Below, piece by piece: positions 27,401 to 30,400 of a stretch of DNA of 38,506 nucleotides (position 1 is its first letter; every line of letters begins with the position of its first letter). Source of the DNA: Catajapyx aquilonaris (taxonomy: Eukaryota); the NCBI GenBank assembly GCA_000934665.2, contig KZ538963.1, positions 1 to 38,506 of the forward strand, given 5' to 3'. Under the pieces are notes generated by a model, which was not told where the DNA came from, did not search any database, and saw nothing but the letters and a program-made list of their open reading frames with translations. Position numbers and translations under genes: made by a program.

Positions 27401-30400
27401 AGCAAGATGTCTGATCTCGAGAGTTAAGGGACTGACGCCAACCGGCGCTTGGGGAAACAAAAGTTTTTGGATCCGGCTCGACGGATTAAAAGGATACAGT
27501 TACCGCAGATAAAAAGGATGATGAAGTAGAAGGATGCTAAGGCACCTATGGAGCCGACACCTCCAAAGGCCTGGATTCCGTTATACATTACCACGTTCCA
27601 ATCTTCGCCTGTCAGGATCTGTCGAATCGAAACGAAATTAATGCGGAATTCCGAGAAATCATGCAAACATGCAACTAAGAAAAATAAAAAAATAACACCA
27701 AAACCACGGTTGTATATGAGCAACTTTCAAGCCAAATTAAAATAACACAATAATATCACATAAACAATACATAATATTATGAACAGCAATATTAATAAGA
27801 ACACAAAAAATTTAGAGCCATCTGAAGAGCCGTTTACACAGCCACTTGTTATCCCAAGCGTACATTTTCTCAAAATTTGAACAAAGTGGATGTGTAAACA
27901 AACTGTGCAATAACTGAAGTTAGACACATAATCCCAACTCAACTACACCCATATGTATTAAAAAGTAGTGTTCAGAAAAACCACGCGGCACACGCTGACA
28001 GAACCAAAAAGCAGTACAAAGCAAATGAAAAGACAAGTAAGCAAAAAACGCACACAGAGTCAAGAGCACTCGACAATAATTTTTTTTTCTCATGCTATAG
28101 TTGAACGGCCTGAGGGGGAAGGGGTGGGGGGCCTACCTGAAACACTGTGAGCAAACTTTGCCAGAAGCTGTCAAAGTTCTCGCGAGGCTTATCTTCGGTG
28201 TCTTGGTAGTTAAATTTCCCACCAAATACTTGCATTCCGAGTAAGGCGAATATGACAATGAAGAGAAACAGCAGGAGCAGCAAAGAAGCTATAGATTGTA
28301 TGGAGTTGAGAAGAGAGGCAACAAGGTTGGATAGAGACTTCCAATATCTGAAAGGCAGGGGGGGGAGTCATTTGCAAGATTTTCAAAAGCAAAAAAAAAA
28401 CATGCGTATAGGCGGCTGATATTTCCCAGAAAAAATATTGGACGCCTTCAGGGCTAGCCAATATATTTTGCAGAAACCCCAAACTGGCAGGCAGCGCAGA
28501 CTTTTCCATCTTGTATAGAGTGATTTAAATTGATTTCGATCAGGAGTATAAGTTATTTTTTGTGGCGTAATTTCACGAAAATTTGAAGCAGATCTTGTAA
28601 GCATTTGAAGCGGGTGGATGCTTAATCGGATCAGAAATCCTCTCAGTTGCATTGAAGCACGTTTCTCCTTCTTTATTATTATTATTATTATTACGAAAAA
28701 AAGCAGCGGCAGACACTTTTTGCATGCAAATATTTGTAGTAATATCTTGGTATAGGAAAAAATTGCGAAATGTGGCCCTAATCTAAAAAGTGCGCTAAGG
28801 GGAAAGGTTGTTGACACAGTTTGCGCTTTATCCCCAAAAGCAAAGCATGGTTATCATCAGCTGTGGTAGATAGCAGATTGATTAATTTTCGGCGGTGCCT
28901 CGTTCGCCCCCCTTTAAAAAGAAAAAAAGAAAAGGGATAGAGATAGAAAATAAAAAATGGGCTGTCTCAAAAAATACCTGAACAACAGTTAGCAAAGACT
29001 GCCACAAAGAATCAAATGTGCTTCGATGCTCATCGTCAGTAGGGAATTTTCCGCCAAACACCTGCATACCCAATAATGCGAAAACAAAAATAAACAGGAC
29101 GAGGATGCACACTAATGAAACGATGGATTGCATGGAATTCAGCAGGGAGTGGACCAGCCCCCGGAGGCTATCCCAATACCTGAAAATGAGATCACATAAA
29201 TCTTTATCAACATTAATCTAATCAGTGATTTTAAAAATAAAATAAAAATGTGCCACTCTCGCTATTGTTTCATTTTTAGATCATTTTGAGTACCACAGCA
29301 ATTAAATCACTCTTTACAAGGGCCTGCAGTCCCCGTACCCTGTACCGGTTCCGGTCAGCGTCCGTGTAACGTATCGTCGTGTGTTGTTACCTTACCTCGT
29401 CACTTTGAACACTCGCAGCAATCGGACGCATCTCAGGACAGAGACACCGAGAGGTGGCATTATTTCCGTTTTTGTCAACGCTATTTCCAATATGCTGCTT
29501 ATTACAACAAAGCAGTCGAACCGATTGAACAATGACACAAAATAACTCTGCGAATGGAACAGGAAAGTGGTGTCAGTGTCACATAAAAACACAACGACGT
29601 GCGTTGTTTTCTTACCTGAAAACCAAGACTGTACATTTTGAGAAACATTTCGAATGTAAAGAGGGCCACGAAGAAGAAATTGGTAATGTCTGCAGAAGGA
29701 AATTGACAATATTAGTATATCATATGGAACATAATGACCTGGTACACTAACCTTGAAAAGTGTCCATCCACTCTTCCTGCTTGTGTCGTTCCGTAGCCAG
29801 AACACCAGTGTTGAGAAACACCAGTGTTATGATGAGCCAATAAAACACTTGAGACTTGACAGCTTTCCGACAGGCTCGTCTCATCCGCCGATTTGTCCTG
29901 TAAGACAACAATTTCGAAATTTAAAACAATCGCTGTCTAATTACAAGTCAAAACCCTCACCTATCAAAGTCCTTCTTCTTCTTCTCCCACCATGATTCCC
30001 TTTGTTCCTCCTCCAATGAGCCATCTCCTTTGTCTGAAGCGTCTATATCACAGATAATTTTTGCTGCAAAAGACAAGAAACGAGGTTAATCCAACGTTTG
30101 ACTGGCATTAACCATTAATTGGGCCGTACATTTTCCATCTTGACAGTGTTCTTCGCCCTCCGGTTCTATGTCTTCGGCTTGCGTTATCCAGTCTAGGTAG
30201 CCTCGCAAGTCCTCCTCTATCTGCTGCTTTTCTCGTAGCTTGTGAAAATCACCTCTCGCTTTTGCTTTACCTCTTTCTTTAGAAAATTCACTGAAAGGAA
30301 AGTGAGGTATGACGTGAATTGGTGTGCCGTTCAGGATACACTACAACCTTAAATAGTCTCTGCAAGCTTTTAGCTATTGTTTGGCAAAAGTGTTTTTAAG

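What the first reader, a model, noticed from the sequence alone, without database searches (positions are those of the whole stretch)
28137..29179. Duplicated domain II S5/pore-turret exon with a strongly divergent second version
Seen: copy b is canonical. Copy a changes normally well-conserved residues: SNLVAS to RGLVHS in the S4-S5 linker, [11 protein letters not shown] to [11 protein letters not shown] in S5, a turret 3 aa shorter, and TVFQ to TVVQ in the P1 helix just before the TGEDW filter. It still keeps frame, [13 protein letters not shown] and both splice sites, while codons at identical residues often differ, which suggests purifying selection. Inference: a swappable pore-module segment that could alter voltage-sensor coupling, conductance or toxin/drug binding.
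Basis: partly seen in the sequence, partly recalled or inferred. Interest (0 to 1): 0.8.

Follow-up and report, generated by a model that had tools for sequence, protein, structure and literature searches.

The report
Alternative pore exon, L-type calcium channel
An invertebrate L-type calcium-channel gene carries two intact, swappable versions of the exon that builds part of the domain II pore, one standard and one divergent but kept by selection. Similar pairs occur in other invertebrates, so the gene can probably make two channel types, though use of the divergent exon in this animal is not shown.

Summary
On the minus strand of a Cav1 (L-type) alpha-1 gene lie two homologous exons, a (29179-28978, 202 nt) and b (28347-28137, 211 nt). 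Both have AG/GT sites and the same phase, and they are 67% identical in protein. Only "exactly one of the two" keeps the frame. Copy b is canonical, 90-93% identical to insect Cav1. Copy a matches nothing above about 70%.

Copy a is not neutral debris. Third codon positions are saturated (44 of 67 differ), yet only 20 of 67 residues differ. A null of neutral decay never reproduced this (0 of 3000 per setting).

Three metagenome contigs from other invertebrates carry the same layout, a divergent version upstream of other versions. A family of such "A-type" exons appears in 76 database proteins, 8 of them spliced products. Whether copy a belongs to that family is unresolved.

A 19-nt inverted repeat flanks exon a and could loop it out.

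No RNA evidence from this organism could be obtained.

Verdict: a probable mutually exclusive exon pair, a new member of a known kind. The closest analogue is Cav3 exons 12a/12b. The functional effect is unknown.

The parts
29396..29547 (-). Constitutive upstream exon (IIS3-IIS4). It ends ...LRVFKVT + AG, the first two bases of an Arg codon.
   Evidence: acceptor ttcgcag|AGT, donor GAG|gtaagg, 152 nt. It matches Cav1 proteins (tblastn).
28978..29179 (-). Exon a, the divergent version of the IIS4-S5 linker / IIS5 / turret / P1-helix exon (202 nt, 67 codons + 1 base).
   Evidence: open frame and AG/GT sites. Pfam Ion_trans E = 3.7e-14. It aligns to rabbit Cav1.1 residues 541-609. The pattern of substitutions rejects neutral decay.
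28137..28347 (-). Exon b, the canonical version of the same exon (211 nt, 70 codons + 1 base).
   Evidence: 90-93% identical to insect Cav1 for most of the 120 listed hits. In run X1 a 213-nt contig ends exactly at its borders. A separate 57-nt contig joins the exon's last 30 nt to an ILTGEDWNM exon of a relative.
27504..27618 (-). Constitutive downstream exon, starting ILTGEDWN. It holds the domain II selectivity-filter Glu, the P2 helix and the start of IIS6.
   Evidence: acceptor cgacag|ATC, donor GCG|gtaact, 115 nt.
29302..29320 (-). Upstream arm of a long-range inverted repeat, in the intron between the constitutive exon and exon a (hypothetical docking box).
   Evidence: 19 nt, 18 of 19 complementary to 28510-28528; 0 of 200 dinucleotide shuffles give a pair of 19 nt or more; duplex -23.6 kcal/mol, though 5 of 100 shuffled boxes bind somewhere as well.
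28510..28528 (-). Downstream arm of the inverted repeat, in the a-b intron, 163 nt upstream of exon b. Pairing would enclose exon a in a loop of about 770 nt.
   Evidence: In one search, record 4, a relative's 471-nt contig matches the window at only two places: the start of exon b and 28511-28531. That match is 21 nt long, so it is only a weak hint of conservation.
28395..28535 (-). Possible decayed third copy of the exon, between a and b. It lies in the same frame as exon b's codons and has no recognisable splice sites.
   Evidence: an ungapped alignment at 32% identity to L021's divergent exon over 47 residues, E = 0.002. Only 1 of 200 shuffled queries score as high anywhere in the window. 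The longer alignment to L042's X runs into a stop.

Best explanation
Exons a and b are a tandem-duplicated, mutually exclusive pair in an invertebrate Cav1 (L-type) calcium-channel alpha-1 gene.

Each encodes the same module: the end of the IIS4-S5 linker, IIS5, the extracellular turret and the P1 pore helix. The module stops just before the constitutive exon that carries the domain II filter Glu (TGEDW). Splicing must take exactly one of the two, because both are 3n+1 bases long. Taking both or neither shifts the frame into an early stop.

Exon b gives the standard channel. Exon a gives a variant with these changes:
- an altered linker (Ala to His, Ser-Asn to Arg-Gly);
- repacked S5 (Leu/Val to Val/Cys/Ile/Phe);
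- a turret shorter by 3 residues;
- Phe to Val in the P1 helix.

Shown: the anatomy, the frame logic, long-term purifying selection on a, and the same layout in other species. Also shown are spliced products that carry a related divergent exon.

Inferred: that a is used in this organism; that choice is helped by an intronic helix (29302-29320 with 28510-28528) that loops exon a out and favours b; and that the swap tunes gating, permeation or subunit contacts rather than ion choice, since the EEEE filter residues lie outside the exon.

Origin: copy a is either a fast-evolving member of an older 'A-type' alternative exon family or a separate duplication. I put these at about even odds.
For: **Gene identity**
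- The best hits are L-type / Ca-alpha1D proteins.
- tblastn maps about 20 kb of exons.
- A filter Glu is present in all four domains, with an IQ motif. Pfam finds GPHH and Ca_chan_IQ.

**Pair anatomy**
- Searches give the splice sites and phases.
- up+a+down and up+b+down are open. a+b gives a stop after 113 codons. Neither gives a stop after 2 codons.

**Selection**
- 74 of 201 aligned bases differ, including 44 of 67 third positions, but only 20 of 67 residues differ.
- YN00 gives dN 0.31 and dS 1.9.
- The null 'a neutral, b constrained' was run at five branch lengths, 3000 replicates each. None gave 20 or fewer residue changes together with 44 or more third-position changes. The expected number of residue changes was 50-57, and the chance of no stop was 5-7%, at branch lengths that reach the observed third-position divergence.

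**Other species**
- 3 of the 51 metagenome loci hold tandem versions, all with AG...GT and the same phase.
- In L021 a divergent version lies 218 nt upstream of the canonical one.
- L042 holds X then Y, and L038 holds Y then Z.
- The Y exon compared between L038 and L042 gives dN 0.05 and dS 0.42.

**A-type family**
- 68 of them are genomic read-throughs, and 67 of those continue with Val (GTN) right after the exon.
- 8 are spliced on both sides, running to domain IV or the C-terminus.

**Position of copy a relative to that family**
- Copy a leans 3.5 bits towards the A-type profile. All 18 control sequences lean 13-39 bits the other way.
- Phe at the 'FIVIF' position is found in 0 of 160 canonical sequences.

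**Other**
- The same gene has two more duplicated exon pairs.
- The intronic helix is described.
Against: - No transcript evidence from this organism. One RNA run was offered, and its contigs cover exon b only. That is no evidence either way.
- No database protein resembles copy a closely. The maximum is 70% over full length and 72% over part, so no orthologue is available to test conservation of a itself.
- Membership of the A-type family is unresolved. Copy a has 2 A-like, 3 canonical-like and 4 other states at 9 diagnostic columns. Trees leave it in a polytomy among canonical sequences. The AU test rejects neither 'a with A-type' (p = 0.36 and 0.48) nor 'a with b' (p = 0.07).
- 25 loci with 1 kb or more of upstream flank show only one version. 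No annotated insect isoform among 186 parsed segments has an alternative domain II exon. The feature is therefore not general.
- The donor of a (gtattt) lacks the +5 G.
- The helix is only marginal by energy: 5 of 100 shuffled boxes bind as well. Its conservation rests on one 21-nt match.
- The 8 spliced products come from divergent channels, about 54-57% identical to this gene. They could come from species where that exon is the only one.
Confidence: 0.65

Rival explanations
1. Copy a is an unused duplicate. It was once functional, or was kept for a while, and is now skipped by the spliceosome and on its way to decay. The gene makes only the b form.
For: No transcript with a was seen (uninformative). 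The donor of a is weaker (gtattt). Copy a is far more diverged from all Cav1 than b is, 63-70% versus 90-93%. It changes residues that are nearly invariant elsewhere, for example Ala to His where Ala holds in 96% of 160 canonical sequences. A probable decayed copy nearby (28535-28395) shows that extra copies do die in this intron.
Against: The frame, both splice sites and an in-frame 9-nt length difference are intact. With third positions saturated, neutral decay predicts about 50-57 residue changes and a stop in about 93-95% of cases. Observed are 20 changes and no stop. The structural core ([28 protein letters not shown]) is kept. The suspected relic is only about 30% identical, which is what real decay looks like here. 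Only a recent silencing would escape these tests.
Confidence: 0.2
2. Copy a acts as a 'poison' exon. It is included together with b, which shifts the frame and sends the mRNA to nonsense-mediated decay. This sets channel abundance rather than making a second protein.
For: Inclusion of a and b together gives a stop 113 codons after the upstream exon. A loop-out helix around a could equally regulate such inclusion.
Against: A poison exon needs no protein-level constraint, yet the substitution pattern of a is that of a coding exon. Related divergent exons are used as the sole domain II exon in 8 spliced products.
Confidence: 0.05
3. On origin only: copy a arose by a separate duplication of b in this lineage. 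It then drifted towards A-type-like states (basic residue in the linker, Phe in S5, short turret) by convergence, and is not an orthologue of the A-type exon family.
For: Free trees place a among canonical sequences, not with A-type. 'a with b' is not rejected (AU p = 0.07). Only 2 of 9 diagnostic columns are A-like. Copy a shares SLR, NSM and RS with non-insect canonical sequences.
Against: Holding a with A-type costs only 0.8-1.1 log-likelihood units (AU p = 0.36 and 0.48). Copy a is the only non-A sequence of 19 tested that leans to the A profile. The L021-type members of the A clade also have only 3 of 9 A-like states. Position is the same in all three lineages: the divergent version is the first of the cluster.
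Confidence: 0.45

Closest known systems
Cav3 (T-type) exons 12a/12b of protostome invertebrates (Lymnaea LCav3; Ca-alpha1T in Drosophila)
   Same: It is the homologous exon of a sister channel family. It starts in IIS5, spans the turret and the descending pore helix, and ends before the filter residue. It is tandem-duplicated and mutually exclusive, and the two versions differ in turret length (PMC4436565 passages; PMC9741552 section 16).
   Different: That event is in Cav3, not Cav1. It is defined by cysteine motifs in the turret (3 versus 5 Cys). Here neither turret has a Cys, and a has one Cys in S5. The Cav3 swap changes Na/Ca permeability, and no such effect is known or testable here. The Cav1 exon also covers the S4-S5 linker end.
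NALCN alternative domain II pore exons (EKEE / EEEE forms) of invertebrates
   Same: A mutually exclusive tandem pair in the domain II pore of a four-domain channel (abstract start in the listing; passage in PMC9741552).
   Different: The NALCN exons carry the filter residue itself. Here the filter Glu lies in the next, constitutive exon, so the EEEE ring is the same in both forms.
Vertebrate Cav1.2/Cav1.3 mutually exclusive exons (8/8a in IS6, and two other pairs)
   Same: Same gene family and the same mechanism class (PMC9741552 passages; abstract start of PMC3060452 in the listing). The window's gene also has an IS6 pair.
   Different: Those pairs affect other segments. According to PMC9741552 the ten events counted in human and fly calcium channels all affect different exons. 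I did not see its figure 4, so I cannot say from that paper alone that none is the Cav1 domain II S5-P exon.
Intronic complementary boxes that loop out exons in Drosophila Ca-alpha1D (IRBIS) and docking/selector pairing in Dscam1
   Same: Long-range intronic base pairing around an alternative exon. It has been reported in the fly orthologue of this very gene for cassette exons (PMC4174434 passages).
   Different: Those boxes are defined by conservation across species. Here only complementarity in one genome is shown, plus one weak hint from a relative's contig.

Membership tests
[quoted passage not shown] | Four homologous domains with a Glu in each pore loop (EEEE) | tested here: met
   TLEGW (I), STFEGW (III) and GEAWQEIML (IV). 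TGEDW (II); exons of all four domains map in order on the minus strand.
[quoted passage not shown] | C-terminal EF-hand/GPHH and IQ domain of Cav1 type, with closest relatives named L-type | tested here: met
   GPHH E = 8.4e-24, Ca_chan_IQ E = 2.7e-15 and 5.7e-9; the listed named hits are L-type / Ca-alpha1D / muscle calcium channel proteins.
Mutually exclusive tandem-duplicated exon pair | Adjacent homologous exons of similar length, in the same phase, each with its own splice sites | tested here: met
   202 and 211 nt, both 3n+1, AG/GT at both, 67% identical, 630 nt apart.
Mutually exclusive tandem-duplicated exon pair | Only single inclusion keeps the reading frame | tested here: met
Mutually exclusive tandem-duplicated exon pair | Both versions under purifying selection | tested here: met
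   (pairwise, with a null for decay of a). Exon b is 90-93% identical to insect sequences. Recent loss of constraint on a cannot be excluded.
Mutually exclusive tandem-duplicated exon pair | Mature transcripts contain one or the other, never both | tested here: inconclusive
   one run, contigs only. A relative's b-type exon is joined to its own ILTGEDWNM exon, which differs from the window's downstream exon. There is no cover of a.
'A-type' alternative domain II exon family (defined here) | Gly at position 6, Lys/Arg at 10, Phe in FIFIF, a turret 2-5 residues shorter, RS[H/T]F; first position in the exon cluster | tested here: inconclusive
   Copy a has His at position 10, Phe, a short turret, RSTF and first position, but Arg-Gly instead of Gly-Asn. 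It shows 2 of 9 strict diagnostic states, a profile difference of +3.5 bits, and AU p = 0.36-0.48.
Cav3 exon 12a/12b | Lies in a Cav3 gene (EEDD filter) and carries the CxC...C or five-Cys turret motif | tested here: not met
   The gene is Cav1 with EEEE. There is no Cys in either turret. It works like this pair by position but is not a member.
Splicing control by competing or looping intronic RNA structure | Complementary intronic boxes flanking the regulated exon | tested here: met
   19 nt with 18 paired, and 0 of 200 shuffles reach this.: -23.6 kcal/mol.
Splicing control by competing or looping intronic RNA structure | Boxes and their complementarity conserved between species; effect on splicing | tested here: inconclusive
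   record 4, keeps 28511-28531 in a relative's otherwise unalignable intron (21 nt only). L021 (12 nt) and L042 (22 nt, low complexity) also have complementary pairs in the equivalent introns, but at chance-like strength. The effect on splicing is not testable here.

The most novel reading that the evidence does not exclude
Cav1 channels of a set of invertebrates have an old alternative version of the domain II S5-pore exon. The identity of these animals is unknown here. Their canonical exon is of the pancrustacean type, and no report of this alternative version was found in four literature searches. The alternative exon always lies first in the cluster. It parallels the Cav3 12a/12b and NALCN domain II events. 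The window's copy a is a fast-evolving member of this family. Choice between versions is set by an intronic helix that loops the first exon out. The alternative module changes permeation or gating of an L-type channel without touching the EEEE ring.
Probability: 0.3. Interest if true: 0.7.

Novelty: new member of a known kind. Interest (0 to 1): 0.5.

Why it matters
Tandem-duplicated, mutually exclusive exons are a main route by which four-domain channels diversify. The homologous domain II exon swap in Cav3 turns a calcium channel into a mostly sodium-permeable one (PMC4436565).

A second natural version of the same module in Cav1 would be a ready-made experiment. The filter ring is unchanged, while the S4-S5 linker, S5, turret and P1 helix are replaced together. 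It would show how those parts shape gating, permeation and perhaps contacts with auxiliary subunits in L-type channels.

It also matters for annotation. In 68 of the 76 proteins that carry an A-type exon, it appears only as an unspliced genomic read-through. None of the named full-length Cav1 proteins retrieved carries one.

Tried and rejected
**RNA evidence.** The look-up of sequencing runs gave one run, X1, holding 0.10 of the sampled words. Read laying showed contigs over exon b and small scraps only. Lack of cover of a, of the upstream exon and of the downstream exon says nothing. X1's contigs come from relatives, not this organism: exon b has 4 differences, and the joined downstream exon differs.

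**Whole genome.** None is held, so paralogues and close relatives could not be searched.

**Earlier findings.** Nothing was found by place, sequence or words.

**Search for a close orthologue of copy a.**
- Three word-index protein searches gave none above 70-72%.
- A profile search of 1.84 billion representatives and a metagenome scan also found none.
- The 'longer' searches covered only proteins up to 2000 residues.
- All lists were cut at 120-150 rows, so annotated isoforms with an A-type exon could be hidden.

**Two high-scoring hits.** P0123 and P0003 turned out to contain the canonical segment twice, probably gene-model or assembly duplications. They are not a/b pairs.

**Phylogeny of a 67-residue segment.** It could not place copy a. 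The second AU test did not finish.

**A second 'selector' just upstream of exon a.** The candidate (29219-29231 pairing with 29304-29316, 13 nt, 85%) did not rank among the best duplexes, and I dropped it.

**Naming the organism.** The atlas search and identity ranking against all long proteins held gave no close relative. The best are hexapod Cav1 at about 64-66% over the tblastn pieces of 45% identity or more.

**Steric or U12-type exclusion.** Rejected: the a-b intron is 630 nt, and all sites are GT-AG.
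Full report
**What is there**

The window carries, on its minus strand from about 35650 to 15430, most of a Cav1 (L-type) calcium-channel alpha-1 gene.
- tblastn with Tribolium and crinoid Cav1 proteins maps exons of all four domains in order.
- The four pore loops read TLEGW, TGEDW, TFEGW and GEAW, and the IQ motif is [20 protein letters not shown].
- Pfam finds GPHH and Ca_chan_IQ in the C-terminal exons.

Within this gene the finding is exactly as described.
- Exon a is 29179-28978 and exon b is 28347-28137.
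- Both follow the constitutive exon 29547-29396, which ends with two bases of an Arg codon. Both precede the constitutive exon 27618-27504, which begins ILTGEDW.
- Each has a polypyrimidine tract, an AG acceptor and a GT donor.
- They encode 67 and 70 residues that are 67% identical (47 of 70, E = 2e-27).
- By alignment to solved structures they correspond to residues 541-609 of rabbit Cav1.1 and 633-701 of human Cav1.2. This covers the end of the IIS4-S5 linker, IIS5, the turret and the P1 helix.

**Frame logic**

The exons are 202 and 211 nt, both 3n+1.
- Upstream+a+downstream and upstream+b+downstream are open.
- With both exons a stop follows 113 codons after the upstream exon.
- With neither a stop follows after 2 codons.

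Only single inclusion yields a channel. This is the usual arrangement of mutually exclusive pairs. The 630-nt intron between the exons and the GT-AG sites rule out steric or U12-type exclusion.

**Which copy is standard**

Copy b is 90-93% identical to insect Cav1 for most of the 120 listed hits (range 77-93%). Copy a reaches only 63-69% against proteins of 119-2000 residues. Against proteins of 36-118 residues it reaches at most 70% over its full length, or 72% over part of it.

Of 275 retrieved proteins that match both copies, only 3 are nearer to a than to b. All three are distant, at 46-47%. Copy a is therefore the divergent one, and no close orthologue of it is on record in what I could search. 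The limits are that proteins over 2000 residues were not candidates and that the lists were cut.

**Is copy a decaying?**

Of 201 aligned bases 74 differ: 18, 12 and 44 at codon positions 1, 2 and 3. 32 of the 47 identical residues use another codon. YN00 gives dN 0.31 and dS 1.9, so synonymous sites are saturated.

I simulated the proper null, in which b accepts only synonymous changes and a accepts everything.
- Branch lengths that reach the observed third-position divergence predict 50-57 residue differences and leave the frame free of stops in only 5-7% of runs.
- None of the 3000 replicates at any of five branch lengths combined 20 or fewer residue differences with 44 or more third-position differences.

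Copy a has therefore been held by protein-level selection for most of its history. A recent loss of use cannot be excluded.

A weak, ungapped, co-linear similarity lies between the two exons at 28535-28395. It is 32% identical to L021's divergent exon over 47 residues, with E = 0.002, and 1 of 200 shuffled queries score as high. The longer alignment to L042's X runs into a stop. This may be a dead third copy. If so, it shows what decay looks like at this locus.

**Other species**

A scan of metagenome contigs with copy a returned 51 loci. Three of them hold tandem versions of this exon, each with AG...GT and the same phase.
- L021 has a divergent version with a turret 5 residues shorter (1340-1534). 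The canonical version follows 218 nt downstream, and the IIS4 exon lies upstream.
- L042 has a divergent version X (1903-2103) and a second version Y (4013-4231).
- L038, from a related source, has Y (1101-1319), a canonical-like Z (1943-2146) and then the ILTGEDW exon.
- Between L038 and L042 the Y exon has dN 0.05 and dS 0.42.

By contrast, 25 Cav1 loci with at least 1 kb of upstream flank show a single version. Among 186 domain II segments parsed from named, mostly insect, proteins (109 flank groups), no species has two versions.

**The A-type family**

A profile of copy a, L021's version and L042's X was searched against 1.84 billion representatives. It brought up many short proteins with an exon of the type YW..MGNLVKSL...FIFIF...short turret...RS[H/T]F.

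- 68 are read-throughs of genomic DNA. In 67 of these the residue after the exon is Val, which is a GT donor read as GTN.
- 8 (P0288, P0354, P0410-P0415) are spliced on both sides to KVTR and ILTGEDW. They run on through domains III and IV, one of them to the C-terminus with GPHH and IQ.
- Their source label is 'merc'. I recall this as a catalogue assembled from transcripts, but I did not verify it. From the sequences alone they are spliced products.

A divergent first-position version of this exon therefore exists in many genomes and is used.

**Does copy a belong to that family?**

This is unresolved.
- In favour: a basic residue where canonical sequences have Ala; Phe in the S5 motif, seen in 0 of 160 canonical sequences; a short turret ending RSTF; and first position in the cluster.
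- In favour: copy a is the only one of 19 non-A test sequences that scores higher on the A profile than on the canonical profile. It scores +3.5 bits, the other 18 score -13 to -39, and true members score +29 to +39.
- Against: it has only 2 A-like states at 9 diagnostic columns, with 3 canonical-like and 4 neither. L021-type members of the A clade also have only 3.
- Against: trees leave it in a polytomy among canonical sequences.
- The AU test rejects neither grouping: a with A-type gives p = 0.36 and 0.48, and a with b gives p = 0.07.

**How the choice might be made**

A 19-nt inverted repeat (18 paired) has one arm in the intron before exon a (29302-29320). The other arm lies in the a-b intron (28510-28528), 163 nt before exon b.
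- No dinucleotide shuffle of the region gave a pair of this length (0 of 200, maximum 17).
- The extended duplex is -23.6 kcal/mol, but 5 of 100 shuffled boxes bind somewhere as strongly, and one other site binds at -22.9.
- Pairing would enclose exon a in a loop and bring exon b to the upstream donor.
- In run X1, a relative's 471-nt contig matches the window only at the start of exon b and at 28511-28531. That is a hint of conservation, but it is a 21-nt match in a metatranscriptome.
- Complementary pairs lie in the equivalent introns of L021 and L042, but they are chance-like in strength.

Looping-out boxes have been described for cassette exons of the fly orthologue Ca-alpha1D (PMC4174434, passages read). 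I treat this helix as a hypothesis.

**Comparison with what is known**
- The nearest analogue is the Cav3 12a/12b pair. It is the homologous exon, mutually exclusive, conserved across protostomes, and changes Na/Ca permeability (PMC4436565 passages; PMC9741552 section 16).
- NALCN has a domain II pair that includes the filter residue.
- Vertebrate Cav1.2 and Cav1.3 have three pairs elsewhere, and fly Ca-alpha1D has two events (PMC9741552).

The present pair fails the Cav3 12a/12b membership test, since the gene is Cav1 and has no cysteine motif. It works like that pair by position.

Four full-text searches gave no report of a Cav1 domain II S5-P pair. I read only listings and the passages named, and I did not see figure 4 or the supplements of PMC9741552.

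**Function**

The EEEE ring is the same in both forms, because the domain II Glu lies in the next exon. Four things change:
- the linker that couples the voltage sensor to the gate (Ala to His, Ser-Asn to Arg-Gly);
- S5 packing;
- turret length, shorter by 3 residues;
- a Phe to Val change in the P1 helix, six residues before the filter Glu.

From general knowledge of these channels I infer effects on activation or inactivation gating and on ion access, and perhaps on contact with alpha2-delta. That last point is recalled and not tested. Drug or toxin effects are speculation.

**Verdict**

The pair is real and very probably a functional mutually exclusive pair (0.65). It is a new member of a well-known kind. 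It is moderately interesting because the homologous Cav3 swap has large effects, and because a related, largely unannotated exon family turned up in other invertebrates.

Noticed in passing
window 32458-32355 and 31528-31425 (minus strand): Two versions of the IS6 exon, both 104 nt with AG/GT sites ([35 protein letters not shown] versus [35 protein letters not shown]). This looks like the counterpart of the vertebrate Cav1.2 exon 8/8a pair.
   Followed up: partly
window about 26190-26094 and about 26022-25872 (minus strand): Two versions of a II-III linker exon, both ending ...[11 protein letters not shown] before a GT donor ([21 protein letters not shown]... versus [21 protein letters not shown]...). 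This is a third candidate alternative pair in the same gene. The exon starts were not determined.
   Followed up: partly
window 28535-28395 (minus strand): Weak ungapped similarity to the domain II exon between copies a and b, possibly a decayed third copy. It overlaps the downstream arm of the inverted repeat.
   Followed up: partly
L042:1903-4231 and L038:1101-2146: Related metagenome contigs together suggest a cluster of three versions (X, Y, Z) of the domain II exon in one Cav1 gene. Y has a turret several residues longer and is under purifying selection between the two contigs. Z was not found in the 949 nt that follow Y in L042.
   Followed up: partly
P0123 (residues 377-445 and 611-679) and P0003 (319-362 and 947-1016): Two database Cav1 proteins contain the canonical domain II segment twice in near-identical form. 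These are likely gene-model or assembly duplications rather than alternative exons.
   Followed up: partly
window about 28690-28670 (minus strand): An (AAT)n microsatellite lies in the intron between exons a and b.
   Followed up: no
window about 9180-9230: A short run of N (read as X in ORFs on both strands), probably an assembly gap.
   Followed up: no
window 3890-4573: Long open frames on both strands (225 aa on plus, 202 aa on minus) in a G+C-richer stretch outside the channel gene. Not identified.
   Followed up: no
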